Virus record (IMG/VR): IMGVR_UViG_3300025327_000013
Strand: one strand, 5' to 3'
Source of the DNA: an uncultured virus (IMG/VR IMGVR_UViG_3300025327_000013)
Lineage: Duplodnaviria; Heunggongvirae; Uroviricota; Caudoviricetes
DNA length: 20,000 nt
Under the pieces are notes generated by a model. The model was not told where the DNA came from. It ran no database searches and saw only the letters and a list, made by a program, of their open reading frames with translations. The position numbers were made by a program, and so were the translations under genes. The first letter of the stretch is position 1. Every line of letters starts with the position of its first letter. This document shows positions 2,478 through 20,000 of the stretch, one piece after another.

Positions 2478-3358
2478 TTGATTCGGCGGTGCGAGATCGG
2501 ACGGCGTGCATGATGAGAGTGAGGAACGAAGAAAGATGGCTAAAAAGGTCACTTGAGCGGACTTACCAGGTGGCAAAGACCGTTGTGCTGTTTGACGACG
2601 GATCTGAAGACAGAACTATACGTGAGGCGCTTGAGACCGTCCTGCCGAGTACGGATGTCATTGATCGCCTGCTGGCTGCGCCAGATCCCATTGCTGTGGC
2701 GTACAACGATCGGTGCTTGTATGTAATCCGTTCTCCGTTTCGGTACAATGTAGTGCGGCCACGAGAGTCAGTCAATGAAATCGTGGATAAGGTGATACTC
2801 TGGCGGTTTGTTAAAGCGACCGTGGATTTTGACTACATACTCTGTCTTGATGGCGATGAAATTCTTACGCTGGCAGCCATTCGTAATTGGTCGTCGGCTA
2901 TCGAACAGATGCGCTCGGGCATTGACATCTTGCACATTCCGTTCCTTTACGCTTGGGATGCAGAAGATCGACGTCGCGTGGACGGTATTTACGGGGACAT
3001 CCCTGGTAGTTCGTTCGCGAAGTTGAATTTCCCGAGGCTCTTTACCATTCTTCGACTGAACGAACATTCTTTGTACAATTCTACCTTCCAGTGGCATGGC
3101 ACACAATGGAGTCTTCACGGAGGCAGTGTGCCTCGCCAGAACTTTCGACCTCTCGGGGCTGAGCCGACGTCTGGGAATGCCCACCTTCCTGTTTTACACC
3201 TTGGATACGTGTCTGAAGAACTCCGGCAACGAAAGTTCATTTTTTATAATGCTCAGGATCCGGCCAACGACGCGGAAGGGCGGTACGAACATATTGTAGG
3301 AAGAAGTGATATTCATGCCCCTGGACCATTGGAATTTGTATCCTGGAGCGATACATGA
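2474..3358 (+). CDS. GT2-like (GT-A) glycosyltransferase
   Basis: VRNEERWL, FDDGSEDRT, CLDGDE (DxD), HLGY. Confidence 0.85.
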   Translation: MIDSAVRDRTACMMRVRNEERWLKRSLERTYQVAKTVVLFDDGSEDRTIREALETVLPSTDVIDRLLAAPDPIAVAYNDRCLYVIRSPFRYNVVRPRESVNEIVDKVILWRFVKATVDFDYILCLDGDEILTLAAIRNWSSAIEQMRSGIDILHIPFLYAWDAEDRRRVDGIYGDIPGSSFAKLNFPRLFTILRLNEHSLYNSTFQWHGTQWSLHGGSVPRQNFRPLGAEPTSGNAHLPVLHLGYVSEELRQRKFIFYNAQDPANDAEGRYEHIVGRSDIHAPGPLEFVSWSDT

Positions 3359-3879
3359 ACGCGAGAACACGCCGACCTATAATTATAAAAGACGGTATAG
3401 CGTATATAGATCTTGCCGGTAGAGACTGGGCACTTATTAACGAGGAAGATTTACCCTTAGTTAGTAATTGGCCGTGGCATAGGATTAGAGGAAAGTATAC
3501 TTGGTACGCCGCAACAAATATTAGAGTGCCAAGTCGTCAACAAGAATACATGCACAGAATGATTCTTGGTACATCTGGGAACAAATATACCGACCATATA
3601 AATGGTAATGGGCTTGATAACAGACTGATCAATTTAAGGGAATGTACTAATGGTCAGAATATGCGCAACGCTGAAAAGAGAAAACGTGGCAAAGTTTTAT
3701 CTAGTAAATATAAAGGAGTATGTTGGTCTAAGAAATCTTCTTTATGGAGAGCAACGATTAAGGAGATGGGCATTCAAAGACATATTGGACTTTTTAAGTC
3801 CGAGGTGGAAGCCGCTAGGGCTTATGATTCAGCAGCAATAAAAGCATTTGGCGAATTCGCAAGGCCAAACTTCGCATGA
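3355..3879 (+). CDS. HNH endonuclease with C-terminal AP2 domain (free-standing homing endonuclease)
   Basis: MHRMIL..DHINGNGLDNRLINLR (HNH); SKYKGV..WRATI..IGLFKSEVEAARAYDSAAIKAFGEFARPNF (AP2). Visibly AT-rich relative to neighbours. Confidence 0.93.
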   Translation: MNARTRRPIIIKDGIAYIDLAGRDWALINEEDLPLVSNWPWHRIRGKYTWYAATNIRVPSRQQEYMHRMILGTSGNKYTDHINGNGLDNRLINLRECTNGQNMRNAEKRKRGKVLSSKYKGVCWSKKSSLWRATIKEMGIQRHIGLFKSEVEAARAYDSAAIKAFGEFARPNFA

Positions 3880-4610
3880 TCTACGCCGTCATCCCGTCCA
3901 GAACTGACGCCTACCTCGACGCGCTCCTGTCCTCCATGGAAGTCTCCGAGCCAGGCATGCTCGGGTATGCCGTGATCGCTGATAATGGGCTAAGTCAAGA
4001 GTTCAAAGATCGCTGGAAGATGATGTGTACGTTCGAACCGACGCCACAACCATTCGTATTCGCACAAGCCATCAACCTCGCGGTGGCCAAGATTCCAAAG
4101 AGCGCGGACATCCTCATCCTGAACGATGATACGACTATGGTGAGTACGTTCTGGCGTCAGCGTGCTGAGCGCCTACTCCGATCCCCAGATCTCGAGCGCT
4201 ACGGCATGATCTCGCTGGCCATCGACGGAGGCGTGGGGAACCCGGAGCAGAAGCGCGTGTTCTGGCAGACACCGGACGTGGTCGAGGCCACGAAGACGCT
4301 GTGCTTCGTTGCAGTGATAATCCGGCGCACGGCGTGGGACGCAGTAGGGCCGATGGATGAACGGTTTCACGCGTACGGCCACGATGACGACGACGCAGTG
4401 CGTCGCATGAAGTTAGGTGGTTGGAAATGTGGCGTGACTCAGCGTATCGTGGTAACGCACGGCGCTGATGGTAGGCCGCACAGCGCGTCATATCTTCGGT
4501 ACCATAGCCAGGAAGAGGCCGATAGGCTCTTCCATGAAAACCAGAGGATCTACTTTAATAAGTGGGGAGGATCTCCTGGGTATGAAAGGTTAACGGTGCC
4601 CAATCCATGA
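3876..4610 (+). CDS. GT2 glycosyltransferase
   Basis: IADNG, FAQAINLA, LILNDD, GPMDERFHAYGHDDDD. Confidence 0.88.
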   Translation: MIYAVIPSRTDAYLDALLSSMEVSEPGMLGYAVIADNGLSQEFKDRWKMMCTFEPTPQPFVFAQAINLAVAKIPKSADILILNDDTTMVSTFWRQRAERLLRSPDLERYGMISLAIDGGVGNPEQKRVFWQTPDVVEATKTLCFVAVIIRRTAWDAVGPMDERFHAYGHDDDDAVRRMKLGGWKCGVTQRIVVTHGADGRPHSASYLRYHSQEEADRLFHENQRIYFNKWGGSPGYERLTVPNP

Positions 4611-4825
4611 ACGCCGTGGCCATGGTCAACATCTGCTTTCGTCATGCGTATCCGGAACTCTACGACCGCGACTGTGTCGAAGAGCCTGCGATCCCAGCGG
4701 ACCTGCGTCATGGCGCTGGTGTCGGTGATATTCCAGTGGGTGCGGAGATTCCGGATGCCGTGACACTGATAGGCGACACACTGTCGGAGGCCGAACGCCT
4801 GCGGGCGCAGCAGGCATCATGCTAA
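4607..4825 (+). CDS. Hypothetical protein, 72 aa
   Basis: ATGA-coupled to the upstream GT2; fills the gap in the operon. Confidence 0.55.
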   Translation: MNAVAMVNICFRHAYPELYDRDCVEEPAIPADLRHGAGVGDIPVGAEIPDAVTLIGDTLSEAERLRAQQASC

Positions 4826-4911
4826 TCCGGTGCCCACAGTGTAAGCGGAAGAGCTTCGACCCCGTGGCTGGGGCCTGTGAACGACGTGCGTGTGGATATA
4901 CCGCGTCATGA
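4819..4911 (+). CDS. 30-aa putative zinc-finger microprotein (not in ORF track)
   Basis: Manual translation MLIRCPQCKRKSFDPVAGACERRACGYTAS*; overlaps upstream stop and is ATGA-coupled to the next ORF. Confidence 0.55.
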   Translation: MLIRCPQCKRKSFDPVAGACERRACGYTAS

Positions 4912-5084
4912 GGGTCTCTTCCCCGCATGTCCTGCCAAAGCGACGTGGTGCCGAACTTATATGTCCCGTGTGTGGTGGCAAGTTTTACGTGAAGCCCTCA
5001 CTGGTGGCGAAAACAAGCACGTGCTCATTGTCTTGCAAGGCGGAGAGACAGCGGCGGCCACAACTTCGGTTGGATGAGACATGA
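4908..5084 (+). CDS. Small putative zinc-finger protein
   Basis: CPVCGGKFYVKPS..TCSLSC; ATGA overlaps at both ends. Confidence 0.6.
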   Translation: MRVSSPHVLPKRRGAELICPVCGGKFYVKPSLVAKTSTCSLSCKAERQRRPQLRLDET

Positions 5085-5566
5085 CTCGTGCTCTGAACCT
5101 CGGGTGCGGGACGAAGCTCAAGAAGCCTGGGGATGAGGGCTTCGATGAATGGATCAACGCGGATATTCGCGAGGATGTCGGGGCGGACATGACTTTCGAT
5201 TGCATAATAGGTATTCCATTCCCTAATGGGTATTTTGATCATGCGGAGGCTGACAATTTCCTTGAGCACGTCAGATCGGAAAGCCTCCTCCCACTGATCA
5301 ATGAACTCGATCGGGTGATCCGAGTTAACGGAACAGTGCGCATAATCGTGCCGCATTTCTTATCACAAGGCGCAGTCCAAGATCCCACTCACGTCGCGCT
5401 ATTTTCACCGCGGACGTTCCTCTATCTCAATCAGCGCCAGACAATATTTGGTGGTCGCGCGATCGGCATTACCGCGAACCTCATCGCCATCGAAGGCCCG
5501 ACGGTCTATGGAGACATGGCCACGGAAGCGTTTATCACGGTGCTGCTGAGGAAGGAGCCACTGTAA
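5081..5566 (+). CDS. Class I SAM methyltransferase (Methyltransf_11-like)
   Basis: LNLGCG motif I, NFLEH, QDPTH. Confidence 0.85.
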   Translation: MTRALNLGCGTKLKKPGDEGFDEWINADIREDVGADMTFDCIIGIPFPNGYFDHAEADNFLEHVRSESLLPLINELDRVIRVNGTVRIIVPHFLSQGAVQDPTHVALFSPRTFLYLNQRQTIFGGRAIGITANLIAIEGPTVYGDMATEAFITVLLRKEPL

Positions 5567-5779
5567 TGATCGGCGTCAGACCTGAGAACGTACAACTGTA
5601 CAAGAGTCTTGCCGCCTATCGTCGCGCGCTCATTACAATTGACGATATTCCGCCTGAGGTGCTCCGAGGTATAGCGTGGCATTTACTGGAAGTCTGTGAA
5701 GTGCTTGTACAAGGACTGGATACGTTCAGAACAACCGTGGAAGATGCAATGGCGAAGCGATGAAGGAGCCACTGTAATG
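5551..5779 (+). repeat. Exact 18-bp direct repeat GAAGGAGCCACTGTAATG at 5551-5568 and 5762-5779
   Basis: Read directly; each copy contains an SD and an ATG. Confidence 0.95.
5566..5763 (+). CDS. Hypothetical protein, 65 aa
   Basis: AAGGAG SD and TAATG coupling. Confidence 0.65.
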   Translation: MIGVRPENVQLYKSLAAYRRALITIDDIPPEVLRGIAWHLLEVCEVLVQGLDTFRTTVEDAMAKR

Positions 5780-6001
5780 TCTGCGTTCTCGTTCGATCGG
5801 TGGATGCCGGAACTTGCGCTGAATAACGAGTTCCTCTGTGTGCGATATCGACAAACCACCACGACCGTATCACGGGATGTCCATAGTCTACACGGGCAGC
5901 CGATATACTTCGACACACGATCAGCGGCGCGAGCACAGTGTGAACTCTTGAATGCGTCGGAGCGTGCAGCTGTAGTTTCAACACGGAGGTTCACCGCGTG
6001 A
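5777..6001 (+). CDS. Hypothetical protein (MSAFSFDRW...)
   Basis: AAGGAG SD in the second repeat copy; GTGA overlap with next ORF. Confidence 0.6.
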   Translation: MSAFSFDRWMPELALNNEFLCVRYRQTTTTVSRDVHSLHGQPIYFDTRSAARAQCELLNASERAAVVSTRRFTA

Positions 6002-6177
6002 TCGTAACCTGTTCTTCGTGCCAGCTAGAATACGACGATTTATATACGCTCACCTATTGCCCACATTTGCCATTCCAAATGCATACGAAGGTCACCGTTA
6101 ACGGCATCCAGCGCTGCTGTCATAGCATCGAAGAACTGCGCGAAGCGATGCTGGACAAGACGCAGAGTGAACGATGA
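5998..6177 (+). CDS. 59-aa Cys/His-rich hypothetical protein (not in ORF track)
   Basis: GTG start, MIVTCSSCQLEYDDLYTLTYCPH...CCHSIEELREAMLDKTQSER*; 4-nt overlaps on both sides. Confidence 0.6.
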   Translation: MIVTCSSCQLEYDDLYTLTYCPHLPFQMHTKVTVNGIQRCCHSIEELREAMLDKTQSER

Positions 6178-6809
6178 CGTTGGGTGCTGAGAAAAGAGCC
6201 ACCAGGATTTGGGAAAAAACATGCCCAGCGTGTGGAGAATCTTTTGCTGTTGGCGGTGCATGTGGACCAATGAGAAAGAAAAAGTATTGTTCTGTGAGAT
6301 GCGCGGGATTTTCCCCGTCCTTTTCTTCACCACGTGGGGCAATGCCGTTAGAGATGAAAAAGGAAGACGCTGCTTGGTTAGCAGGCCTGTTCGATGGCGA
6401 AGGTTGCGTGATCATCTACAAAAGCTCAAGTAAGTATTCAGTCCGATATGCTATGAAGATAACATTGTCCAATACGAACTCAGAAGCACTTGTAAGATGT
6501 AGGGATATTTCCGGGGTTGGCAATGTTGTTCTTGGCAGGGCAGGAACATATAAAAGTAAGCCGAGTTATTACTGGGTCGCCGGCAGTGAGACCGCTGCTG
6601 CTATTCTTCGTCAGATACTACAGTATTCTTTTATAAAGAAACCGCAGGTAGAACTTGCCCTGAAGTTTCAAGAAAAAATGCTGACTGCGTCTTTGAGGGC
6701 TCAGCTTGGATGGCAATTAGAGATGAAAAATGAGCTGCATTTGTTGAATTATCGTGGACCTCGTATTATAACGCAGCGTCTTGGTCGCCCGAAGACAGAG
6801 GCTGTGTAA
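6174..6809 (+). CDS. Single-motif LAGLIDADG endonuclease with N-terminal zinc finger
   Basis: CPACG..YCSVRC followed by AAWLAGLFDGEG; AT-rich. Confidence 0.88.
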   Translation: MTLGAEKRATRIWEKTCPACGESFAVGGACGPMRKKKYCSVRCAGFSPSFSSPRGAMPLEMKKEDAAWLAGLFDGEGCVIIYKSSSKYSVRYAMKITLSNTNSEALVRCRDISGVGNVVLGRAGTYKSKPSYYWVAGSETAAAILRQILQYSFIKKPQVELALKFQEKMLTASLRAQLGWQLEMKNELHLLNYRGPRIITQRLGRPKTEAV

Positions 6810-7486
6810 TGCTACCCATCGTTATGCCGTGTGTGAATTGCGTTTCTTATAGTAAGCAAGCGGTCGCGTCCGCGCATCCTCGCAGCGATCTCTACTTCAT
6901 CGACAACGCCTCGACAGACGGCACGCGCGAGTGGGCGCAGGCAGAGGCCAACGCTGGCAGACTTCGATATCTGCCCCAGAGGTATAATCTTGGCGTGGCG
7001 GCATCCTGGAACCTCGGGATCCGAAAAGCCTTTGCTGACGGCCATGACAGCGTACTAGTGAGCAATAACGATGTTGTGTACGACGTGGATACGATCCCGA
7101 ACCTCGAGCGCTGGCACGAGGAGACAGGGGGCTTTATCACCGTCCACTCGGTCGCGTACCTTGAAACGCTGCTGAAGCAAGCGCGGCGGCATGTGCTGGA
7201 GCAGCCACCGGATTTCGCGGGCTTTGTTATCTCACGGAAAATATTTGAGATGATTGGTCCGTTCGATGAAGGATTCCGTCAAGCGTATTTCGAAGATCTG
7301 GATTATGTCATCCGCATGAAAGACGCTGATATAGTTTACGGCCGTGCTATGAACTCCTTAGTGCTTCATTACCACTCGAGAACTGTACACGAGGGGGGAG
7401 TGAAGGCTTTCCCTCAGCAAGAGTTAAATCGTCGTCGCTTCATTGCCAAGTGGGGGCAACAGCGGCTACAGGAAGTCGGGCAATAG
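6809..7486 (+). CDS. GT2 glycosyltransferase
   Basis: IDNASTDGT, NLGVAASWNLG, SNNDV, FDEGF..YFEDLDY. Confidence 0.92.
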   Translation: MLPIVMPCVNCVSYSKQAVASAHPRSDLYFIDNASTDGTREWAQAEANAGRLRYLPQRYNLGVAASWNLGIRKAFADGHDSVLVSNNDVVYDVDTIPNLERWHEETGGFITVHSVAYLETLLKQARRHVLEQPPDFAGFVISRKIFEMIGPFDEGFRQAYFEDLDYVIRMKDADIVYGRAMNSLVLHYHSRTVHEGGVKAFPQQELNRRRFIAKWGQQRLQEVGQ

Positions 7487-7508
7487 TCAATCAAAGGAGG
7501 ACATGGTA

Positions 7509-7730
7509 ATGGGATCTAGGGGTGCATTCTACCGTACTCATGTCTGTCCCGGAGGAGAGAAGCCACCGGACACACGAGCGATGATCGTTGCAGTTGATAA
7601 AGATAACGCGTTGATTGCGAACGTCCACGTTGGGTGGTATCTCCAGCTTGACGTAGATTGCTACGATTGGATATCAACCGTGCACGTGTCGATCGTGTTC
7701 TGTCCGTGGTGTCGGGTCACGCTCGAATGA
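7509..7730 (+). CDS. Hypothetical protein with C-terminal CPWC
   Basis: AAGGAGG at 7494-7500; IVFCPWC motif. Confidence 0.6.
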   Translation: MGSRGAFYRTHVCPGGEKPPDTRAMIVAVDKDNALIANVHVGWYLQLDVDCYDWISTVHVSIVFCPWCRVTLE

Positions 7731-7891
7731 AAGATATTCCGTCTGACTGGATCCGAGACTATGTGGACAAGTTACTCACACTAGCTGGTCAGTTGCCGGA
7801 AGATGGGAAGATGCGCGAGGCTATGTTGCGAAACGTAGATTGTATTATGAATATGGTACAGGCGTGGAAAGATACTAAGGAGACGCAATGA
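7727..7891 (+). CDS. Hypothetical protein, 54 aa
   Basis: ATGA overlaps at both ends. Confidence 0.6.
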   Translation: MKDIPSDWIRDYVDKLLTLAGQLPEDGKMREAMLRNVDCIMNMVQAWKDTKETQ

Positions 7892-8202
7892 ACACTATAT
7901 CAAACTATCGCTTCGACGGTGTCAAGACTGAGCCAGTGTATTTCTGCCGTTGTGGTGTTGAGCACACAGGAGATTACGCAATCTACGATTTCGGACATCA
8001 TATGTGCTTTCACGATGGACCACTGTGGGATATCGGCTTAGGTCAATTTGTCTGCTCGGAGTGTGGGAAAGATTTCAGAGTTGAGGAGATGCGCTCAGAA
8101 TATGATATTCGTCAAGGTGTACGAAGGAAGTATACTACCCGTTATCAGAAGCTCTCGTGGTGGCAGGAAATAGTCTTGTATCTGCAGGCGCTCTACCGAT
8201 GA
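7888..8202 (+). CDS. Hypothetical zinc-binding protein
   Basis: AAGGAG SD; CRCGVEH, HHMCFH, CSECG. Confidence 0.6.
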   Translation: MNTISNYRFDGVKTEPVYFCRCGVEHTGDYAIYDFGHHMCFHDGPLWDIGLGQFVCSECGKDFRVEEMRSEYDIRQGVRRKYTTRYQKLSWWQEIVLYLQALYR

Positions 8203-9311
8203 TCCGCGTGGGGTATTCGTCGTTTCTAGCTGACAGTTCGGGCATGGGGGAAGCGGCTCGTCGAGTACTGACTGCGTTGTCACTTCTTGACGACGTCGAA
8301 GTCGGTCCAGCGATCCTCAAGGGCGGGAAGCGAATCATCAGTGACGGGGGCTGGCAAGTGCCGATCACGCCAGCGCTCAAAGCATTCATCGACTACGATC
8401 TCTCTGGCCCAGCCGACGTTCATATGATCCACTGCGCTGCGATGGATTTCGATAAGTTTCGGCCACCGTTCATGACAGCGAAGCGGATCGGCATGACTTG
8501 TGTAGAGGTCGATCGCCTACACCGTATCCAGATCGAAGGCTGTAAGTTCGTCGATCAGGTACTCGTACCATCCAAACACAACCAGGAGGTCTTCGAACGA
8601 GCTGGCATAGCGACGACCGTGGTCCCGTATCCGCTGGTCATGCCACCGTATACAGATGAACGGAACATCCCGAACCGGCAGGCAATCGTCGGGGTCTTCG
8701 ATAGCTCGTACGTATTTTATTGTGTAACCACCCTCCAAGAGCGCAAGAATATCATGGGTCTCGTGACCGCGTTCCTCCATGCCTTTACGTGGCAGGATGA
8801 CGTCGCGCTCCTGATCAAGGTTGCTGGTGTGGATCCTCAGCAGGCTGTCAAGGACGCCGCTCTTTTCGTCGGAGCTTTGTGCACGGACATGCAGATCCAG
8901 GATCCGCCAAAGATCCGTCTGCTCGGCGGGGAATGGACGGATCCCATGCTCTGGGGCCTCCATGCTCGAGGGGACTGCTACGTGTCCTTATCCCGTGGGG
9001 AGGCCTTCGGAATTCCTTTGTTGGATGCCGCCGCCATGGGGAACCAGGTCATCGCGGTGCCGTACGGTGGCCACGTGGACTTCTTGCCGGCTGAAAACAC
9101 GCATTGGGTGAAATATAGGATGACGCCAGTTGTCCAGAGATACCCACATTTCAATGGCCAGCAACTCTGGGCCGACGCCGACATCCTTCAGGCCGCCAAC
9201 CTCATGAAGGAGATCGCCAAGAAAGGACGAGGGCCGAAAGCTCTACCGAACCTCACAGCATTTTCTACTATAAAAATCGCGGAGTTACTGCACAAGGTGC
9301 TTACTGAATGA
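8199..9311 (+). CDS. GT4 glycosyltransferase
   Basis: SGMGEAAR, ERKNIMGL, SRGEAFGIPLLDAAAMG. Start at ATGA overlap. Confidence 0.9.
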   Translation: MIRVGYSSFLADSSGMGEAARRVLTALSLLDDVEVGPAILKGGKRIISDGGWQVPITPALKAFIDYDLSGPADVHMIHCAAMDFDKFRPPFMTAKRIGMTCVEVDRLHRIQIEGCKFVDQVLVPSKHNQEVFERAGIATTVVPYPLVMPPYTDERNIPNRQAIVGVFDSSYVFYCVTTLQERKNIMGLVTAFLHAFTWQDDVALLIKVAGVDPQQAVKDAALFVGALCTDMQIQDPPKIRLLGGEWTDPMLWGLHARGDCYVSLSRGEAFGIPLLDAAAMGNQVIAVPYGGHVDFLPAENTHWVKYRMTPVVQRYPHFNGQQLWADADILQAANLMKEIAKKGRGPKALPNLTAFSTIKIAELLHKVLTE

Positions 9312-12642: not shown

Positions 12643-13662
12643 ATGCCAAAAGGATATGTCACATCTGACATGATCGACCTCAATGAGCTGTGGTATGCAG
12701 GCGGTGGTATCGCCGCTGCCGTCGATCAGTATCAAGCGGTCGAGATGCCGCTACTAAACGCACTCGCATTGCCGTGGCCGGAAAACATCATGAAGTACGG
12801 CATCAGCGAACGGAACGGATTCCAGGTCCTCGGGCCTGGGGAACGGCCAGACCGCAAGTACGTCGTAGAAGCGACGATGTACCCCGTCGTGACGAAGTAT
12901 GGCTACGGCGTGGGGACGGATCTCGATACCCTGCAACGCTCCAGCGCGCGGCAGATCATGCTCGCCATGAACCGGCCGATGCTGGAGGATCCTGAGCACA
13001 TCCTGACGCGCATTCTCAAACTTCTAATGACGAACCCAGGTACCAGTAATGCTGGGTACGGATTCTGGAACGGGCAGTACGCGGCAGAGGAAATTATCAC
13101 GCATCCGCCGGCCTATCAACAGCAGACGTTTGCGGCTGGCCACAACCACTTCTTGGTGTCGCTCACGGCCAGCACACTCGTGCTCAAAGACATCACCGCG
13201 ATGAAGCAGACAATCCGGCATCACGGGGCCAAGGGCACACTGCTTGGTTTCATCAATTCCGATACCGCGATGGCGATCGAGAACCTTGCGCTCTTTACCG
13301 TCGGCAGCACGGCGCTGGTGCGTTCGCCTGTATCGGATACCGTTGCGGTCGACGGCTTCGGGGAAAGCTTCAGGCTGCTCGGTGTCGACTGGTACGTCAC
13401 GGAACTCGTGCCGGCCAACTACGTCCTCATGGTCGAAGGCAATTCTGCCGAGACTGAGCGGCCGTTGATCATGTACGAGCCCGCCGCGATGCGGGGGCTC
13501 AGGCTGCATCCAGGGCCGATGAACGACTATCCGCTCATCGAGTCCTTCTGGGATCGGTGGTTTGGATTCAAGGTCGCCAGGCGCGGTTCCGGTGCTGCGC
13601 TCTGGTTTGGTGCGCACGTCGGGACGTATACGTCGCCGACATTCTCGTTCACGGCGTCGTAA
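12643..13662 (+). CDS. Major capsid protein (probably HK97 fold)
   Basis: 339 aa, strong SD, position after scaffold and decoration genes, downstream hairpin. Confidence 0.75.
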   Translation: MPKGYVTSDMIDLNELWYAGGGIAAAVDQYQAVEMPLLNALALPWPENIMKYGISERNGFQVLGPGERPDRKYVVEATMYPVVTKYGYGVGTDLDTLQRSSARQIMLAMNRPMLEDPEHILTRILKLLMTNPGTSNAGYGFWNGQYAAEEIITHPPAYQQQTFAAGHNHFLVSLTASTLVLKDITAMKQTIRHHGAKGTLLGFINSDTAMAIENLALFTVGSTALVRSPVSDTVAVDGFGESFRLLGVDWYVTELVPANYVLMVEGNSAETERPLIMYEPAAMRGLRLHPGPMNDYPLIESFWDRWFGFKVARRGSGAALWFGAHVGTYTSPTFSFTAS

Positions 13663-13738: not shown

Positions 13739-14089
13739 ATGAGAACACATCAGAGGGAGAGGGTGAAGGAGCATCTGATCGATCCGCGTCAATGGCGTGT
13801 CATCGGTCAATTGCGGCACCATGACGTGACGTACGGCACGGCAGAACCGCTGCCGGATATCACGGTGACTGAAGCGGCGCTGTACGAAAAGCAAGGCACA
13901 TTGATGCGGGTGAGCGATACGGCACTCGCAGAATCATATCTTGAAGGGCCTGATGTGGCGGTGCTGCAGACTGTGCTCGACAAGAAACCGGATGAACGAG
14001 TGCTGAATCAGATGCTTACACTGGCGCAAAGGAATTCGCGATCCAAGGTGCTTGAATTGGCGCTGACCATTGCCAGGGGGAGTGCATAG
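13739..14089 (+). CDS. Hypothetical phage protein downstream of capsid
   Basis: GAGGAG SD; stop overlaps the next start. Confidence 0.7.
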   Translation: MRTHQRERVKEHLIDPRQWRVIGQLRHHDVTYGTAEPLPDITVTEAALYEKQGTLMRVSDTALAESYLEGPDVAVLQTVLDKKPDERVLNQMLTLAQRNSRSKVLELALTIARGSA

Positions 14090-16401
14090 TGCCACGTGTG
14101 CTGATCGTCAGCGATAGCCCGGCGGTGAGTTCTGGCATGGGCCGCGTGGTGCGTGAACTCGCGCCGCGATTCACGGCCGACGGATTTTCGGTCGGGGTCG
14201 CTGGGTGGTTTGACCTTGACGCTCCTGCCATGGACTTCGATTATCCAGTTTTCCCAATTCAGAAGCACGAACCGGCGAGCCTGCAACCGTATCTCGAGCA
14301 CTTTGCGCCGGATCTCGTGGTGGCGATCGGGGATCCGTGGGACTGGGCGTGGCTTGTCAATCATCGGTTGCAGACCGGCGGATACAAGCTCGTCGGCTAC
14401 CTAAATGTCGAAAGTGCTCCATTGCCCATGCTGTGTGAACGTATTCTCGACGGTTTCGATGCCGTGTGTACCTCTAGCCAGTACGGTGCCCGTGCGATCG
14501 GCCGGCCTGGCGTGACTGCGATTCATTACGGCGTCGATACGGAGACGTTCTTTCCCATGCCGCCACCGTCCAAGGTGTTGTTTGGGAAGCCATTGGATCA
14601 GACATTCACGGTGCTGATCAACGGGCAAAATACATTTCGAAAGAACTTGGGCGCATCCATGGCGGGATTCCTGCAGTTCGCTCGCGGGAAGCCGGATGTC
14701 CTGGCGTACTTCAATACCGTCGCTAGGCCAGGTCCGAACGATGCACCCGGGACGGACCTCGTGGATCTGTCTATTCAGCTCGAGGCTGAGAAACTCGTTT
14801 GGTTCAATCCAGACAACCATGGACCGATCAAGACCATTGACGATACGGCCTTGAACGGACTCTATGGGATTGCCTCCGTTCTGCTCTCAACTTCTGTCGG
14901 CGAAGGATTCGGGCTTCCGGTCCTCGAGGCGATGGCCTGTGGCGTTGTTCCGGTAGTTCCGCAAGATTTCAGTATGCCGGAAATCATCGGAACGGAACCG
15001 GGTCAGTACATCCAACACGCCCGCGGTATTGGGATCCCGGTGCATGCGTACATTCCGACGCTCCAGGGTCAGCGGGTGCCGGTGGTCGCTGACGCGGACA
15101 TTGCGGATGCGCTCCAAGCTGCCTACGACGCATGGCGTCATATGCGCGCAATGTCCAATCTCGATGGGGATACGACCAGCTTCGGCGTGATGCGCACAAA
15201 CGGTCTTGAATTCGCGCGGAGCAAGACCTGGGATCGGACGTATACGCAATTCGTTACTGTGTGCCTAGACTCCTTGCGGACGCCGCGGTCGCGGATGGCG
15301 GTGGGCCGACCCATCGAGCCAGCTATCCGACTCTTTGGACGCCGGACAGCCAAACGGCATCCGGAGGCTTTTGGCGTGCTCAAGATGGGCGGGTTGGGTG
15401 ACATGCTGCAGGCCACGGCCGTTATCCGGGCTGCGGCGCTCAAGTCAGGACGCAAGGCCGTAGTTTTCTGCAACGCCCATGCGGACGTGTTTCTGGCCAT
15501 GCCAGAGGTGGTTGAAACTGTGCAACTCGCTCCCATGCCCCAGCAAATGGCAGCAGACAGCCTAGCAGACGAGTTTCCGCTCTTCCTGGACGTCCGGTAC
15601 GTCTCGAGGGCCTACGGCCTCTGGAAGCCCACGGCGTTCTTTGAGAAGCATCAGTGGTTTTATGACCACTGGACGCCGTCCTCAAATCGCCTGGCGACCC
15701 TTGGGATGCACAGTACGCAAATCATGCTGGATAGTTTGGGGCTCGAGGGGCCGATTTGGCCGGTCTATGAACCTCGGGCTGAGCCGTCGCTGGATCGCGC
15801 TGCGTGGCCAGTCGAGCCCTACGTGGTCTTGGCGACCGGTGTCGGTGCTATGGGAGGGCTCAAGCGCTGGCCGGCGGAGCGCTGGACCGCGCTCGCCCGT
15901 GCTCTTCACCTGGACGGACTTCACCTTGTGCATGTCGGCGGCACTGGGGATGACGCGGTGGATGGCATTGACTTTGATTACCGTGGTGCAAGCCTACCTG
16001 AGACCGCGTGGATCCTTGAGCATGCGCAAGCGCTAATTGCCGTGGAAGGTGGGATTGCACACTTGGCCGCTGCGGTCATGCGGCCTTTTTGGGGACCGGA
16101 TGGGCAGAAGGTGCCCAACGGACAATTCATTGGAGTGATCTTCGGGCCAACGCCCACTAGGCCTTTTCTCTATCCAGGCCACACCGCTCTCGTACTCCCA
16201 GAATTCTGTACCCCATGCTGGCAGGTCGAACCGAATTGGAAGCACGCCAAATGCTCAATCGGAGCACCGAGTTGTGTGAACTTCCCGTCGGTGGCGGATG
16301 TCCTCTCTACGGTAACGCTGTATCTGCCGCGTGTGACCCGAACATCCTTTTCTTCTCCCAGTACGGCGCATGCCCTGCATATGGAAATGATACCGAAATG
16401 A
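14089..16401 (+). CDS. GT4-GT9 double glycosyltransferase fusion
   Basis: N half: SDSP..SGMG, RKN, GEGFGLPVLEAMACG. C half: GGLGDML, KRWP..RW, EGGIAHLAAA, IFGPT, CTPCW. Confidence 0.9.
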   Translation: MPRVLIVSDSPAVSSGMGRVVRELAPRFTADGFSVGVAGWFDLDAPAMDFDYPVFPIQKHEPASLQPYLEHFAPDLVVAIGDPWDWAWLVNHRLQTGGYKLVGYLNVESAPLPMLCERILDGFDAVCTSSQYGARAIGRPGVTAIHYGVDTETFFPMPPPSKVLFGKPLDQTFTVLINGQNTFRKNLGASMAGFLQFARGKPDVLAYFNTVARPGPNDAPGTDLVDLSIQLEAEKLVWFNPDNHGPIKTIDDTALNGLYGIASVLLSTSVGEGFGLPVLEAMACGVVPVVPQDFSMPEIIGTEPGQYIQHARGIGIPVHAYIPTLQGQRVPVVADADIADALQAAYDAWRHMRAMSNLDGDTTSFGVMRTNGLEFARSKTWDRTYTQFVTVCLDSLRTPRSRMAVGRPIEPAIRLFGRRTAKRHPEAFGVLKMGGLGDMLQATAVIRAAALKSGRKAVVFCNAHADVFLAMPEVVETVQLAPMPQQMAADSLADEFPLFLDVRYVSRAYGLWKPTAFFEKHQWFYDHWTPSSNRLATLGMHSTQIMLDSLGLEGPIWPVYEPRAEPSLDRAAWPVEPYVVLATGVGAMGGLKRWPAERWTALARALHLDGLHLVHVGGTGDDAVDGIDFDYRGASLPETAWILEHAQALIAVEGGIAHLAAAVMRPFWGPDGQKVPNGQFIGVIFGPTPTRPFLYPGHTALVLPEFCTPCWQVEPNWKHAKCSIGAPSCVNFPSVADVLSTVTLYLPRVTRTSFSSPSTAHALHMEMIPK

Positions 16402-17078: not shown

Positions 17079-17145
17079 ACCCTGTTGCAGAGAGGAGGAG
17101 GCGGTATGCACGTGACATTCACACTTTCACGAGGAGGAGGGGCGC

Positions 17146-18244
17146 ATGGCAACTGCACGCATGAAGAAGGGTAGGCGCCCGCGGGGAGGAGTCACGCACT
17201 CCTCGATTCATGTCCGCGGGTTCGCTCGGATTCAGATGGGGGAGAGGGTCGACGGTCACCTGAAGATTGTCGGTGATTCCGGGTGGCTGAAGAACACGAT
17301 TACCAACGAGGGGCGCAATCTGTACATCGCGGCGCAGGTCGGCTCTGTCACCGGTTCCAAGCAGGTGAACGCGCTCCAGCTTGCGACGCAGCAAACCGCT
17401 GTCGATGCCGCGTCCACGGCTCTTGTGGGTGAGACGCGCGTGCGGAAGACACTGCTGGCGTCCACCCTCGCAACGGGTACGTTGCGGATGACCGCGTCCT
17501 GGTCGTCTACGGACAATGCGGCGGCGATCACCATCGGGTCGATCGCTGTGTACAACACCACTACCGCTGGGGCGGGTACCATGGGATCGGGCCAAAGTTT
17601 CACAACTTTGACTGTAAAATCAACTACTTACAGAGCGCCTGCTCTTTATCTAGTTGGTTGCGGAGCCTTGGCTGCGTGAGCTACCAAGGGATGGCCGCTA
17701 ATTCGGCGAACGCTGTGATGCCAACGCCGAGCGAAATGCCTGAGGCGATGAGGACGCGCTCGCAACACGTCTCAGGTATCTGTGTAGAGATCATATACGG
17801 CCCTCTTCGGCGCGTGCAGACCGGAGATGAAGACATGATCCATGCCCTGGCGAATGATAAGTCAGGGAACCAGCCCGATAGCCCAGTAAATTTGACGCAC
17901 TGCGCAATGGGCGTCAAATCAAGATTTGTCGGCTACGTTACTCCTGCTGCAAAATCAACTAGTTATATCTCAGAATATGAGAGATCGGTTGATAGCAGCG
18001 TAAAGGGGTCGGCGCGTCATATTGGTGACGATATGACGGATGGTGGCGAACTCGGTGGACGCTGTGATGCCAATACCGAGCCAAGCGTTGGGTCAGGGGA
18101 GATCGCACTCGTTTGTACTGACTCAATGGCGTGTGTAGAGACTAGGTGCCACCCTCTCCCGTGCGGTAGTTTGGGAGATGAAGGTATAGTCCACTCCCCG
18201 GCGAACGATAAGTCGGGAGCCACGAGGACGAGTGGCGTTTCTAA
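17146..18244 (+). CDS. Ser/Thr/Gly-rich virion protein, predicted spliced: join(17146..17608,17903..17938,18228..18244), 171 aa
   Basis: Strong SD; NTITNEG motif. Removing two U|...G-bounded group I introns gives an open frame ending GQSFTTSQWASNQDLSATYEWRF*. Confidence 0.75.
17609..17902 (+). ncRNA. Group I intron 1 (294 nt, no ORF)
   Basis: P2 CCTTGG/CCAAGG; P3 GGCCG 17693/CGGCC 17798; P4 TTCGGCG/CGCCGAG; P7 GAGATCA 17787/TGATCC 17836; P9 CCTGGC/GTCAGG. IGS GTTGCGGAG 17657-17665 pairs with ligated exons CTT|CGCAAT. Confidence 0.85.
17939..18227 (+). ncRNA. Group I intron 2 (289 nt, no ORF)
   Basis: P1 TACGT/GCGTA with U.G; P2 CGTCATAT/ATATGACG; P3 GGTGGC 18042/GCCACC 18148; P4 CTCGGT/ACCGAG; P7 GAGACTA 18138/TAGTCC 18187; J8/7 GAAGGTA; P9.0 CTC/GAG directly before the terminal G. 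Confidence 0.9.
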
Positions 18245-18280
18245 CGCATCGCGTTACAGTAGTTTGAGAGAGAATCAAGT

Positions 18281-19399
18281 GTGATTTGGACGAAGGAGAT
18301 GGATGCACTACTGCTCGAGAAGTATCCGAGCGAAGGTGCCCGTCCGTGCTCGGTACTATTCGGCGTATCAATCGACGCCGTATGGCACCGAGCACGGAAA
18401 CTAGGCTGTCATGCGAGCAAGGAAGTGCAGAAGTCTGCCATCCGTAGATGGAAAGACGAGTACGACGACATTCTTCGGAAACGGTATGCAGTCGACGGTC
18501 CACAAAGAATAGCAGCAGAACTCAAATTATCTAGGCAAACCGTAGAGAATCGGGCAGCGGCTCTTGGTCTTACAAAGGGACACTGGAGTCAGGAATCGGA
18601 TGCAGTAATTAAATCCGGTTATGCCGCAGATGGTGCTGCAGCCGTTGCTAAGGTTCTAGGGGTACCAATTTCTGCTGTGTACCACCGTGCCCGACGACTT
18701 GGAATTAAATATGACTGGAAGACTCGTCGTGGACAGTCGCAGTGGCTTTCAGAAACAGTACGTGTAACCGCAGCTATCCGTGATGATTTAAAGTGTGGAA
18801 TTTACGCTATTCGACATGGTGACAGTGGTCGGATGTATGTTGGTAGTGCTCTTGATATCTTTTCAAGATGGAAGGTACATCTAAGGGGTTTGCGTCAAGG
18901 TAAGCATCATTCTAGGGCATTACAAGCAATCTTCGATAAATATGGACCATCAGCATTCGTTTTTGAAGTTTTGGAAGAATGTGCTTCTGAACAGCTTTAC
19001 GAGCGCGAACAGCAGTTCATGAATATTCATAAACCTGACTTAAATTCGGCTCCAAACGCGGGGAGTCCACGTGGCATTAAACGCACTGCTGAGCAACGTG
19101 TTGCCCATACAAAGAGAATAAGAGCTATTTACGCTGATCCAATTAAGCGCAAACGCATTAGGGCAGCAAAGTCAGCGGCTATGCGTGAAAAGTGGAAGAA
19201 CTCAGAATTTCGAGGCAGAATGTCGACGGCTTGGCGTACGCGTCCGTGGGATGGCGAGGAGGATAATTACCTTTTCAATCTCTCTGGGCATCTTCCTCTT
19301 AAAGAATTAGCCGTAGTTTTTGGCCGAACACCGTCGGCCGTCCAAAATCGTGTCCATTTCCTCGGTCTCAGTCTCCGCGCCAAAGGAGCGAGGGTGTGA
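18281..19399 (+). CDS. Free-standing GIY-YIG endonuclease with HTH-like repeats
   Basis: CGIYAI..RMYVGSA..RW..H..FEVLEEC..REQ..N. Repeat W..E.D..L..Y..A..S..V..RA..LG occurs three times N-terminally and once C-terminally. Confidence 0.92.
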   Translation: MIWTKEMDALLLEKYPSEGARPCSVLFGVSIDAVWHRARKLGCHASKEVQKSAIRRWKDEYDDILRKRYAVDGPQRIAAELKLSRQTVENRAAALGLTKGHWSQESDAVIKSGYAADGAAAVAKVLGVPISAVYHRARRLGIKYDWKTRRGQSQWLSETVRVTAAIRDDLKCGIYAIRHGDSGRMYVGSALDIFSRWKVHLRGLRQGKHHSRALQAIFDKYGPSAFVFEVLEECASEQLYEREQQFMNIHKPDLNSAPNAGSPRGIKRTAEQRVAHTKRIRAIYADPIKRKRIRAAKSAAMREKWKNSEFRGRMSTAWRTRPWDGEEDNYLFNLSGHLPLKELAVVFGRTPSAVQNRVHFLGLSLRAKGARV

Positions 19400-19795
19400 A
19401 TGGGCACCGGCTATCTCACCCCCGCGCAAATAGCGCAGATCAAGGCGATCCGAGCGAAGGCCTGGAACCGCCCGTTCACGGTCTACACAGAGGTACGGAG
19501 CTCGCCGACAGATTACTACGACACGCCAGCGCTCCTGCAAAGTGGCACGACCACGGTGCTATCAGGCGACTGGGCCTGGCGCGGGCAGGTGGAGAACCGT
19601 GGAGAAGCGGGTGGAGTGATCCAGCATGCGGACTTAGCGCTGGCAACGGATATCCTGTATTCCGGCTCCCTGATGCAGGCGGGGGTACGACTGGTCGTCG
19701 ACGGCATCACGGTGGCGGTGATACGGGCATCCCCGTACCCAGATTCAGGGGAAATCGTTGTGAACGCTGTCAGAGTTCTGACGACCAATGAGTAA
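19400..19795 (+). CDS. Putative head-closure/adaptor protein
   Basis: AAGGAG SD; beta-rich with RLVVDG; size and position. Confidence 0.6.
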   Translation: MGTGYLTPAQIAQIKAIRAKAWNRPFTVYTEVRSSPTDYYDTPALLQSGTTTVLSGDWAWRGQVENRGEAGGVIQHADLALATDILYSGSLMQAGVRLVVDGITVAVIRASPYPDSGEIVVNAVRVLTTNE

Positions 19796-20000
19796 TCTGC
19801 TCCTCGCGCTCTCGGACGTCTCACGCCTTGTCGTGACGGGGTCCTTCTGGTGGTTTGTCATCAAATTCTGGAACATCAGGAACGGACTCGTGCTCCGTCG
19901 GTTCGCGGATTTCATTGTTGCGCTGGCACTCACCAGTAGCTGGATTACCCTAGTACATTTCGACCGGCGATTCGATGTATTGCCAATGATCGATCTCAAC
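19788..20000 (+). CDS. Membrane protein, 3'-truncated by window (not in ORF track)
   Basis: MSNLLLALSDVSRLVVTGSFWWFVIKFW...FIVALALTSSWITLV...; open to the window end. Confidence 0.55.
   Translation, partial: MSNLLLALSDVSRLVVTGSFWWFVIKFWNIRNGLVLRRFADFIVALALTSSWITLVHFDRRFDVLPMIDLN

What the first reader, a model, noticed from the sequence alone, without database searches (positions are those of the whole stretch)
17609..18227. The two introns are diverged paralogues with compensatory changes even in P7
Seen: shared blocks CTGYAAAATCAACTA, GGATGG, ACGCTGTGATGCCAA, TGTGTAGAGA, GGAGATGAAG and GGCGAAYGATAAGTC, while paired stems differ. P7 is GAGATCA/TGATCC in intron 1 and canonical GAGACTA/TAGTCC in intron 2: two base pairs changed, G-binding G-C pair kept. 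P3, P4 and P9 also differ while staying paired. Inference: both are under selection for activity, and one lineage colonised two sites 36 nt apart by retargeting its guide sequence.
Basis: partly seen in the sequence, partly recalled or inferred. Interest (0 to 1): 0.75.

Follow-up and report, generated by a model that had tools for sequence, protein, structure and literature searches.

The report
Two tandem group I introns in phage gene
Two related self-splicing RNA introns sit 36 bases apart at the end of one phage gene, and their relatives in other phages occupy several neighbouring sites, which makes this gene end a natural record of how such introns move.

Summary
Window 17609-17902 and 17939-18227 are two ORF-less group I introns, 181 of 264 aligned bases identical. 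Removing them restores the C-terminus seen in intron-less homologues (...TTSQWASNQDLSATYEWRF*). Both keep a full P1-P9 core. Seven aligned base pairs differ on both sides yet stay paired, two of them in P7, and the G-binding G-C pair and bulged A are kept.

The two are not each other's closest relatives. Intron 1 groups (99.9/99 support) with two introns of another phage's homologous gene. Intron 2 is nearer to introns at a third site in other phages and to a third intron 6 kb downstream in this phage, in another gene.

Across 7 distinct intron-bearing alleles with good model scores (10 introns), the family occupies four sites within 36 nt of mRNA. The intron-2 lineage sits at ...ACGU| sites with a shared GCG guide, so it needed no retargeting. 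The intron-1 lineage did change its guide.

The core resembles bacterial tRNA (IC3) introns. Free-standing homing endonuclease genes flank both intron-bearing genes. Tandem similar introns around a short exon are already known from phage Twort. I judge this a new member of a known kind, with a useful site-hopping pattern.

The parts
17146..17608 (+). Exon 1 of the host gene (154 codons plus the first base of a Ser codon). The protein has no Pfam or PHROG family.
   Evidence: ORF. 58 homologues. The alignment shows homology up to ...GSGQSFTT. No family found.
17609..17902 (+). Intron 1, a 294-nt ORF-less group I intron that ends in G17902. Helices: P1 17606-17610 / 17661-17665 (U17608.G17663); L1 hairpin 17619-17626 / 17651-17658; P2 17666-71 / 17684-89; P3 17693-97 / 17798-17802; P4 17702-08 / 17725-31; P5 17712-13 / 17720-21; P6 17736-47 / 17768-79; P7 17787, 17789-93 / 17836-41; P8 17804-10 / 17821-27; P9 17845-51 / 17861-67 with a 9-nt loop.
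   Evidence: Model R1 scores 118.8 bits. The junction is set by intron-less homologues. No Rfam hit even at E<=10.
17903..17938 (+). Exon 2, 36 nt. It supplies the last two bases of the Ser codon, then codes QWASNQDLSAT, then the first base of a Tyr codon.
   Evidence: Frame listed. It matches ...SQW[AN]SNQDLSAT... of intron-less homologues.
17939..18227 (+). Intron 2, a 289-nt ORF-less group I intron that ends in G18227. Helices: P1 17934-17939 / 17997-18002 (U17938.G17998); L1 hairpin 17954-60 / 17987-93; P2 18015-24 / 18029-38; P3 18042-47 / 18148-53; P4 18051-57 / 18074-80; P5 18061-62 / 18069-70; P6 18086-97 / 18117-28; P7 18138, 18140-44 / 18187-92; P8 18155-61 / 18172-78; P9 18194-18202 / 18212-19 with a 9-nt loop.
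   Evidence: Model R1 scores 140.1 bits. Rfam RF00028 gives 23.1 bits, E 5.9e-4, below the gathering score of 50.
18228..18244 (+). Exon 3: the last two bases of the Tyr codon, then EWRF and the stop codon TAA.
   Evidence: Sequence. It matches the YEWRF* end of homologues.
18299..19399 (+). Free-standing GIY-YIG homing endonuclease gene (366 aa, with HTH regions). It starts 72 nt after intron 2's 3' splice site.
   Evidence: Pfam GIY-YIG E 4.4e-9. PHROG homing endonuclease families. 39% identical over 147 aa (E 9e-29) to the GIY-YIG at the same position in L008.

Best explanation
The stretch holds two ORF-less, probably self-splicing group I introns. Their core resembles that of bacterial tRNA (IC3) introns. 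They interrupt the last 53 coding bases of a conserved 171-codon phage gene.

Inferred splicing: each intron folds its own P1-P9 core, binds guanosine in P7 and cuts after a U paired to a guide G (U17608.G17663; U17938.G17998). It then joins the exons after its terminal G. Splicing at these points restores ...TTSQWASNQDLSATYEWRF*.

The two introns are homologous but belong to two sub-lineages of one phage-borne family. In related phages that family occupies four sites within 36 nt of this mRNA, and in this phage it also occupies a second gene.

Site choice follows 3-5 nt of exon-guide complementarity. The intron-2 lineage carries a GCG(U) guide and sits at ...ACGU| sites. That pattern fits RNA-guided (reverse-splicing type) insertion. 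Spread between phages was probably helped by the free-standing homing endonuclease genes next to both intron-bearing genes (collaborative homing).

Shown here: the anatomy, the junctions, covariation and the relationships. Inferred: catalytic activity, the insertion pathway and the endonuclease's role.
For: Junctions:
- 58 homologues were found. The intron-less ones end ...TTSQW[AN]SNQDLSATYEWRF. The window gives exactly this only if 17609-17902 and 17939-18227 are removed. Both removed stretches follow a U and end in G.

Family and structure:
- Model R1 finds only these two copies in the window (118.8 and 140.1 bits). A third copy scores 127.4 bits at genome 38812-39050.
- R1 also gives 96 matches in 100 viral loci and 16 in 19, and 93 in 100 bacterial loci.
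- On 74 distinct sequences, 92.8% of cells pair, against 75.3% in shuffles and 27-46% with slid partners. 19 of 26 pairs show changes on both sides. P7 is 100% paired.
- Relatives in the same gene reach Rfam's gathering score: L202 70.3 bits and L171b 52.6 bits.

Subgroup:
- 78 of the 120 bacterial loci that match the core pattern are split tRNA genes by ARAGORN -i: Leu-UAA 24, CAU 14, Arg-CCU 8.
- The classical bacterial tRNA introns are marked IC3 in GISSD, according to bioRxiv 10.1101/2020.01.27.920355 (passages read).

Lineages and sites:
- The tree is and the sites were read. Site 1 holds i1. Site A holds L022a and L171a. Site B holds L008, L022b, L036, L167 and L202. Site 2 holds i2 and L171b.
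- The third intron's junction (GAC GU|...G|C UUC) restores MAQE..RRRKKEDVFIDGYF, as in intron-less homologues. Its 5' flank AAGACGU is identical to L008's site B flank.
- Folds place the splice-site U opposite G in L008, L167, i3 and L202. For i2 the U17938.G17998 pairing was read by hand; the minimum-energy fold pairs U17938 with A18003 instead.

Endonucleases:
- A GIY-YIG gene lies downstream here, in L008 and in L167. A LAGLIDADG ORF ends 82 nt before the third intron's site.
Against: - No RNA data exist, so splicing itself is not shown. No RNA run was listed.
- Neither intron reaches Rfam's gathering score. i2 scores 23.1 of 50 bits and i1 has no hit.
- Intron 1's P1 has only three exon pairs. 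A rival register (U17607.G17656, intron ending at G17904) gives a better-looking 5-bp P1 but deletes a conserved Ser.
- No P10 pairing is evident for either intron.
- The viral and bacterial family members were fetched with a pattern that fixes 16 core bases, and alignment A6 is fitted to the model. Both inflate conservation and pairing figures.
- The tree rests on 129 columns.
- i1 and i2 alone share three peripheral elements (the 5' hairpin, the L5 15-mer and L9). That argues for some direct kinship or exchange between them, against a clean two-lineage picture.
- Reverse splicing needs a reverse transcription step for which nothing was found here. A palindromic ACGT could equally be an endonuclease or recombination preference.
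- Endonuclease genes also follow 9 of 55 intron-less alleles, against 2 of 4 intron-bearing ones in the same set. No association can be claimed.
Confidence: 0.7

Rival explanations
1. One reading: one intron duplicated inside this gene in this phage lineage, the copy changed its guide sequence, and the two copies then diverged in place.
For: The introns lie 36 nt apart and are 69% identical overall. They alone share the AAAATCAACTA 5' hairpin, the identical 15-mer ACGCTGTGATGCCAA in P5/L5, and the GGCGAAYGATAAGTC L9. These elements are absent from L171a/b, L008 and the third intron.
Against: The core tree puts i1 with L171a/b at 99.9/99 support and i2 with L167, L008 and i3. Core identity is 66% for i1-i2, 72% for i1-L171 and 81% for i2-L167. 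i2's guide is the same as that of its relatives at other sites.
Confidence: 0.2
2. Only one intron is an autonomous ribozyme. Intron 1, with its unusual P7 and weak P1, is inactive alone and depends on a protein or on intron 2. Alternatively the gene is a pseudogene.
For: i1 has no Rfam match at E<=10. Its P7 variant occurs in 2 of 74 distinct family members. Its P1 has 3 exon pairs, and the terminal pair of its P3 is a C.A mismatch.
Against: At 41 columns conserved at 95% or more, i1 differs only at the four mutually compensating P7 positions. All helices fold. The exons keep an intact conserved reading frame. The same P7 variant arose separately in L117.
Confidence: 0.08
3. The two repeats are not introns but another repeated RNA or DNA element, such as a regulatory hairpin array or a remnant of a mobile element, and the gene simply ends at 17679.
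For: The ORF 17146-17679 is open with a stop codon. Gene callers produced such read-through proteins in other contigs (P0002, P0003).
Against: The conserved C-terminal 17 residues are encoded in two pieces exactly at U|...G boundaries. The group I core shows covariation. Relatives pass Rfam's threshold.
Confidence: 0.02

Closest known systems
Bacteriophage Twort orf142 (tail tube gene) with three group I introns. Described in PMC10136302 (passages read) and PMC11878797 (passages read). The original paper, PMC22036, is not held.
   Same: A phage structural-region gene with several group I introns. Two of them are highly similar and flank a very short exon (23 nt in Twort, 36 nt here). Exon skipping is mechanically possible, and here it would stay in frame.
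   Different: The Twort introns are subgroup IA2, whereas these have an IC3-like core. Here the two neighbours are only 69% identical and come from different sub-lineages. Exon skipping was shown for Twort and is not tested here.
Bacterial tRNA group I introns, subgroup IC3: tRNA-Leu(UAA), tRNA-fMet, tRNA-Arg(CCU) and tRNA-Ile(CAU), including the Azoarcus intron. Sources: bioRxiv 10.1101/2020.01.27.920355, passages; review PMC3984707, passages.
   Same: The core signature is the same: GTAGAGA...TGAAGnnAYRRTCC, P3-P8 without P7.1/P7.2 or P5abc, and a small size (about 240-290 nt). Model R1, built from the phage introns, scores most bacterial loci at roughly 55-90 bits, with a weaker tail down to 23 bits. 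Other phage family members score 61-86 bits in the alignment set.
   Different: Those sit in anticodon loops of tRNA genes, and these sit in protein-coding phage genes. i1 and i2 have a large hairpin inserted in the P1 loop, a two-pair P5 with a 6-nt loop, and a 9-nt L9 in place of a tetraloop. The tetraloop-receptor habit of IC3 introns is recalled, not tested here. Formal subgroup assignment was not run.
Collaborative (trans) homing of ORF-less introns with free-standing homing endonucleases, as summarised in review PMC3984707 (passages read).
   Same: ORF-less introns lie within about 70-80 nt of a free-standing endonuclease gene. The GIY-YIG gene follows the i1/i2 gene, and a LAGLIDADG gene precedes the third intron's gene. 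A homologous GIY-YIG holds the same position in L008.
   Different: The cleavage site of the endonucleases is unknown here. Endonuclease genes also follow many intron-less alleles.
Related rDNA group I introns at different sites, taken as circumstantial evidence for reverse splicing. Sources: review PMC3984707, passages; PMC1299323, seen in a search listing only.
   Same: Closely related introns sit at different sites whose 5' flanks fit the intron's 3-6 nt guide.
   Different: Here the case is in phage protein-coding genes: four sites within 36 nt, plus a second gene with an identical 7-nt flank.

Membership tests
Group I intron (Rfam RF00028 Intron_gpI) | The last exon base is U, paired to a G of the internal guide in P1. 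| tested here: met
   i2: U17938.G17998 with four further exon pairs (read by hand; the minimum-energy fold instead pairs U17938 with A18003). i1: U17608.G17663 with two further exon pairs and two intron pairs. A rival register exists for i1 (U17607.G17656).
Group I intron (Rfam RF00028 Intron_gpI) | A terminal G (omega G) at the 3' end, and exon ligation that restores the gene. | tested here: met
   G17902 and G18227. The joined exons give ...TTSQWASNQDLSATYEWRF*, as in intron-less homologues.
Group I intron (Rfam RF00028 Intron_gpI) | A conserved core P3-P4-P5-P6-P7-P8 with the P3/P7 pseudoknot, supported by covariation. | tested here: met
   Alignments. On 74 distinct sequences 92.8% of cells pair, against 75.3% shuffled, and 19 of 26 pairs change on both sides. 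Caveats: the sequences were picked by a core pattern, and the alignment is fitted to the model.
Group I intron (Rfam RF00028 Intron_gpI) | A guanosine-binding G-C pair in P7 next to a bulged A. | tested here: met
   G17789-C17840 with A17788 bulged, and G18140-C18191 with A18139 bulged. The identification of this pair with the G-binding site is by analogy recalled from the Tetrahymena intron.
Group I intron (Rfam RF00028 Intron_gpI) | A score at or above Rfam's gathering threshold (50 bits). | tested here: not met
   There is no hit in the whole window at gathering. i2 scores 23.1 bits, E 5.9e-4, when searched alone. i1 has no hit at E<=10. Relatives in the same gene pass: L202 70.3 bits and L171b 52.6 bits.
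Group I intron (Rfam RF00028 Intron_gpI) | Self-splicing with guanosine and Mg2+. | not testable with these tools
   No RNA run was listed. DNA contigs show no intron-less joint.
Subgroup IC3 | Closest likeness to the classical bacterial tRNA introns, with no P7.1/P7.2 and no P5abc. | tested here: met
   The core pattern finds 120 or more bacterial loci, of which 78 are split tRNA genes. R1 matches 93 times in 100 of them, most at roughly 55-90 bits and the weakest at 23 bits. J7/3 is 1-4 nt and P5 is a simple hairpin.
Subgroup IC3 | Assignment by subgroup-specific covariance models, and low scores for non-IC3 controls. | not tested
   No subgroup models are on hand. No IA2 control (T4 td, Twort) was run against R1.
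Twort-type tandem introns | Two similar group I introns flank a short exon in one ORF, and exon skipping occurs. | tested here: inconclusive
   The arrangement is met: a 36-nt exon, both introns after the first base of a codon, so skipping would stay in frame (...TT-YEWRF*). Skipping itself cannot be tested. A hybrid of i1's 5' strands with i2's 3' strands would carry 2 mismatches in P3, and 1 mismatch plus 1 wobble in P7.
Collaborative homing pair | A free-standing endonuclease cleaves the intron insertion site of intron-less alleles. | not testable with these tools
   Only adjacency is shown.

The most novel reading that the evidence does not exclude
The last 36 nt of this gene's mRNA may be a natural arena of RNA-guided intron transposition.
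- One sub-lineage with an unchanged GCG guide has landed at three different ...ACGU| sites: site B in other phages, site 2 here, and a second gene whose 7-nt flank AAGACGU is identical to site B of L008.
- The other sub-lineage moved by single-base guide changes (GAG versus GGG).
- The unusual compensated P7 and P3 of intron 1 may be selected to keep two neighbouring ribozymes from forming a chimeric core. Alternatively they may tune an in-frame exon skip that removes 12 residues.
Probability: 0.3. Interest if true: 0.75.

Novelty: new member of a known kind. Interest (0 to 1): 0.55.

Why it matters
Direct evidence for reverse-splicing transposition of group I introns is lacking. The review read here calls related rDNA introns at two sites the best circumstantial evidence (PMC3984707).

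This locus offers a compact, testable case in phage protein-coding genes. It has ten introns of one family at four sites within 36 nt, and a copy in another gene with the same 7-nt flank. Guides can be read directly from the sequence.

It also shows IC3-like introns in phage structural-region genes, whereas phage introns are usually filed under IA2 (PMC11878797). Both copies are missed by Rfam's threshold, so such introns truncate gene calls: P0001-P0003 are read-through proteins.

For the tandem pair it gives a natural counterpart to engineered work showing that differentiated cores and splice-site elements suppress exon skipping (PMC10136302).

Tried and rejected
- Named phage records: tblastn of exon 1 and blastn of 17100-19900 against 50,697 records found nothing.
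- Rfam over the whole window at gathering gave no hit. The evalue run over 17300-19900 gave only chance miRNA-like hits on a hairpin at 18343-18398.
- nhmmer with a 3-intron profile found fewer relatives than the covariance model did.
- ARAGORN with default settings found no tRNA in 15 bacterial loci. The intron option was needed.
- Expression: no RNA holder was listed. Contigs of four DNA runs cover the stretch in pieces, identical to the window, with no joint that would show an intron-less allele.
- Structure of the host protein: the AlphaFold2 model of intron-less homologue P0004 with 27 sequences had mean pLDDT 48 and pTM 0.28. That is too poor to search with, and no fold search was run.
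- Host proteins of all three introns have no Pfam or PHROG family.
- The 16-mer of the 5' hairpin gave 53 viral hits. That is about what my rough estimate gives for chance, and only the window's own contig keeps the hairpin partner. I therefore did not treat it as a mobile element.
- Endonuclease-intron association: 150 of 157 downstream ORFs from 59 non-duplicate loci were scanned. 11 loci carry a GIY-YIG, HNH_3 or NUMOD3 ORF, 2 of the 4 intron-bearing and 9 of the 55 intron-less loci. This is too few to claim anything.
- P10 pairing was looked for by eye and not found for either intron.
- L5-L9 kissing was considered and rejected because the loops are not complementary.
- The Twort paper PMC22036 is not held.
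- One protein comparison failed on a wrong frame and was not repeated.
- Earlier findings of this scan: none for this genome.
Full report
WHAT IS THERE

The window is bases 14585-34584 of a 45.6-kb viral record. A 128,929-bp metagenome contig carries the identical locus. Upstream lie a major head protein gene (12643-13662, PHROG 3990) and many glycosyltransferase and methyltransferase genes.

The ORF at 17146 reads through to a stop at 17679, but that end is false. Fifty-eight metagenomic homologues exist. The intron-less ones end ...GSGQ[ST]FTTSQW[AN]SNQDLSATYEWRF*. In the window this end is coded in three pieces:
- exon 1, up to U17608;
- exon 2, 17903-17938 (36 nt);
- exon 3, 18228-18244.

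THE OBSERVATION

The two stretches align at 181 of 264 positions. The alignment score is 176, against 73 +/- 10.5 for 200 shuffles.

Both fold into a complete group I core. The order is P1 with a large hairpin in its loop, then P2, P3, P4, a two-pair P5 with a 6-nt loop, a long P6, P7 with a bulged A, P8, and P9 with a 9-nt loop.

Seven aligned pairs differ on both sides and stay paired: 2 in P3, 1 in P4, 2 in P7, 1 in P8 and 1 in P9. Four of five one-sided changes lead to G.U. P2 and P6 differ in sequence but both remain helices. The G-C pair next to the bulged A in P7 is unchanged.

ARE THEY GROUP I INTRONS, AND OF WHICH KIND?

Rfam finds nothing at its gathering score. Searched alone, intron 2 gets 23.1 bits (E 5.9e-4) for RF00028. 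Intron 1 gets nothing.

I built a covariance model (R1) from six cores: the two introns, a third copy found in the same genome, and three introns found in homologous genes of other phages. R1 finds only the two copies in the window.

A scan of viral contigs with a core pattern gave at least 119 loci. R1 matched 96 times in 100 of them and 16 times in the other 19.

On 82 aligned matches (74 distinct), 92.8% of cells pair, against 75.3% in shuffles and 27-46% with slid partners. Nineteen of 26 pairs show changes on both sides. P7 pairs in every sequence, although its 5' strand was not fixed by the pattern.

Two caveats apply. The pattern fixes 16 core bases, and the alignment is fitted to the model.

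Relatives within the same host gene pass Rfam's threshold (L202 70.3 bits, L171b 52.6 bits).

The same pattern in bacterial genomes gave at least 120 loci. Seventy-eight of the 120 are intron-split tRNA genes by ARAGORN with introns allowed, chiefly Leu(UAA), CAU and Arg(CCU). R1 gives 93 matches in 100 of these loci, most at roughly 55-90 bits with a weaker tail down to 23 bits. The upper range is the same as for unrelated phage members.

The classical bacterial tRNA introns are filed as IC3 (bioRxiv 10.1101/2020.01.27.920355, passages). With no P7.1/P7.2 and no P5abc, the introns here are best called IC3-like. I could not run subgroup models or an IA2 control.

IS INTRON 1 DECAYED?

At 41 columns conserved in at least 95% of 71 other distinct members, intron 1 departs only at the four P7 positions that compensate each other. 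Intron 2 departs at two unpaired positions.

Intron 1's P7 (GAGAUCA/UGAUCC) is rare: 2 of 74 distinct sequences carry it. The other carrier (L117) lies elsewhere in the tree, so the same double swap arose twice.

One uncertainty remains, the 5' splice site of intron 1. The junction that keeps the conserved Ser (U17608 | ... G17902) has a P1 of three exon pairs (CUU/GAG, U17608.G17663) plus two intron pairs. A register one base upstream (U17607.G17656, intron ending at G17904) gives five exon pairs but deletes the Ser.

I favour the first junction for two reasons:
- The bases left at the ends of the intron would otherwise spell the conserved TCG codon by coincidence.
- Read-through protein P0003 looks like the same intron without the hairpin, which would bring CUU and GAG close together. 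This is inferred from a protein sequence and is weak.

RELATIONSHIPS

On 129 core columns, identities are 66% for i1-i2, 72% for i1-L171a and i1-L171b, 81% for i2-L167, 76% for i2-L008 and 76% for i2-i3. The third intron (i3) and L167 share 91%.

IQ-TREE groups i1 with L171a/b at SH-aLRT 99.9 and UFBoot 99. It places i2 among L008, L167 and i3, with weaker support there. A FastTree of 73 sequences agrees in outline. So the two neighbours represent two sub-lineages, each also present in other phages.

Against a clean split, i1 and i2 alone share three peripheral elements: the 5' hairpin block, an identical 15-mer in P5/L5, and L9. This points to retained common periphery, to exchange between neighbours, or to a shared constraint. 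I cannot tell which.

SITES AND GUIDES

I examined 42 viral and 80 metagenomic loci encoding the host protein, duplicates included. R1 found introns in six of each set at E<=0.01. These reduce to seven distinct alleles with good scores carrying ten introns, plus one weak hit (L236, 24.3 bits).

Read against the protein, the sites are:

| Site | Exon context | Introns |
|---|---|---|
| 1 | ACU U\| | i1 |
| A | UGG GCN U\| | L022a, L171a |
| B | [GA]AC [GC]U\| | L008, L022b, L036, L167, L202; probably L236 |
| 2 | AC[GC] U\| | i2, L171b |

In spliced coordinates the sites lie at 0, +12, +25 and +36.

Lineage and site do not go together. i1-type introns sit at sites 1, A and 2. i2-type introns sit at sites B and 2, and in another gene.

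The third intron (genome 38812-39050, outside the window) splits codon 16 of a different conserved gene. Its junction GAC GU|...G|C UUC restores MAQE..RRRKKEDVFIDGYF, as in intron-less homologues. Its seven 5' flanking bases AAGACGU equal those of L008's site B.

Folds put the splice-site U opposite a G followed by C-G in L008, i3 and L202. For i2 the same pairing (U17938.G17998, then C-G and G-C) was read by hand, because the minimum-energy fold pairs that U with A18003 in a competing long hairpin. L167, whose flank is ACCU, has GGGG instead.

In this phage site B reads GAU UU|G and is empty, while site 2 reads ACG U| and is occupied. The intron-2 lineage therefore appears at sites that fit one unchanged guide. 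The intron-1 lineage shows guide changes (GAG here; GGG or GGGC in L171; read from sequence).

This is the pattern expected of guide-directed insertion. It does not prove reverse splicing, and ACGT is a palindrome that an enzyme could also prefer.

ENDONUCLEASES

A free-standing GIY-YIG gene starts 72 nt after intron 2. It is 39% identical (E 9e-29) to one at the same place in L008, and L167 has one too. A double-motif LAGLIDADG ORF ends 82 nt before the third intron's site.

Among 59 non-duplicate loci with enough downstream DNA, 11 carry an endonuclease ORF in this slot: 2 of 4 intron-bearing and 9 of 55 intron-less loci (150 of 157 ORFs scanned). The slot is clearly a homing-endonuclease hot spot. 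A link with the introns is plausible (collaborative homing; PMC3984707) but is not shown.

COMPARISON WITH WHAT IS KNOWN

[quoted passage not shown] The arrangement here is the same in kind.

Both introns here sit after the first base of a codon and the exon is 36 nt long. Skipping would therefore give an in-frame protein lacking 12 residues.

A chimeric core made of i1's 5' strands and i2's 3' strands would have two mismatches in P3, and one mismatch plus one wobble in P7. In other tandem pairs of the family, L171, L074 and L072 also clash in P3 or P7, but L022a/b are fully cross-compatible. The idea that divergence is selected to keep neighbours apart stays a hypothesis.

VERDICT

These are real, unannotated group I introns. 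The pair itself is a new member of known kinds (IC3-like introns; Twort-type tandem introns). The wider pattern of four sites and a shared guide is the part worth following up.

Noticed in passing
outside the window: genome G000:C1:38812-39050 (L002:1412-1650): A third intron of the same family (R1 127.4 bits) splits codon 16 of another conserved gene. It has a P7 variant GAGACUG/CAGUCC, an extended P5 and a GGAA L9. Its core is 91% identical to the L167 intron, which sits in the i1/i2 host gene family.
   Followed up: yes
outside the window: genome 37650-38729 (L002:250-1329): A free-standing ORF with two LAGLIDADG motifs ends 37 nt before the start codon of the gene that carries the third intron.
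   Followed up: partly
L167:1083-1135, compared with window 17616-17660 and 17951-17993: The 5' hairpin of introns 1 and 2 shares a 16-mer with intron 1 that recurs in L167. There it lies outside any intron, between the host gene's stop codon and the start of the free-standing GIY-YIG gene. Its role is unexplained. It could be a regulatory element of the endonuclease gene or a relic of an endonuclease once carried in the P1 loop. Some viral hits to the 16-mer have AT-rich upstream context reminiscent of phage promoters, but the hit count is near my rough chance estimate.
   Followed up: partly
window 18343-18398: A long, near-perfect hairpin lies inside the 5' part of the GIY-YIG reading frame. 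It drew chance miRNA-like Rfam hits. It might affect expression of the endonuclease.
   Followed up: no
window 3355-3879 and 6174-6809: Two more free-standing homing endonuclease genes (HNH with an AP2 domain; LAGLIDADG) are wedged between glycosyltransferase genes. No intron of this family and no Rfam hit lies near them.
   Followed up: partly
window 20-9311 and 14089-16401: An unusually dense set of glycosyltransferase and rhamnosyl O-methyltransferase/CmcI-like genes sits around the head genes. It includes a 770-aa fusion of GT4-like and GT9-like domains directly after the major head protein region.
   Followed up: no
L032:4051-6039: In a related phage, the gene after the methyltransferase downstream of the host gene carries an intein with a LAGLIDADG domain.
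   Followed up: no
proteins P0001-P0003, P0010, P0036, P0049: Public gene calls for this protein family often run into the introns and end in ...LAA*, which is translated P2 sequence. Database entries for these alleles therefore carry false C-termini.
   Followed up: partly
L048, L075, L122: Several viral family members lie beside clusters of phage tRNA genes. Part of the viral family may therefore be introns of phage tRNA genes rather than of protein-coding genes.
   Followed up: no
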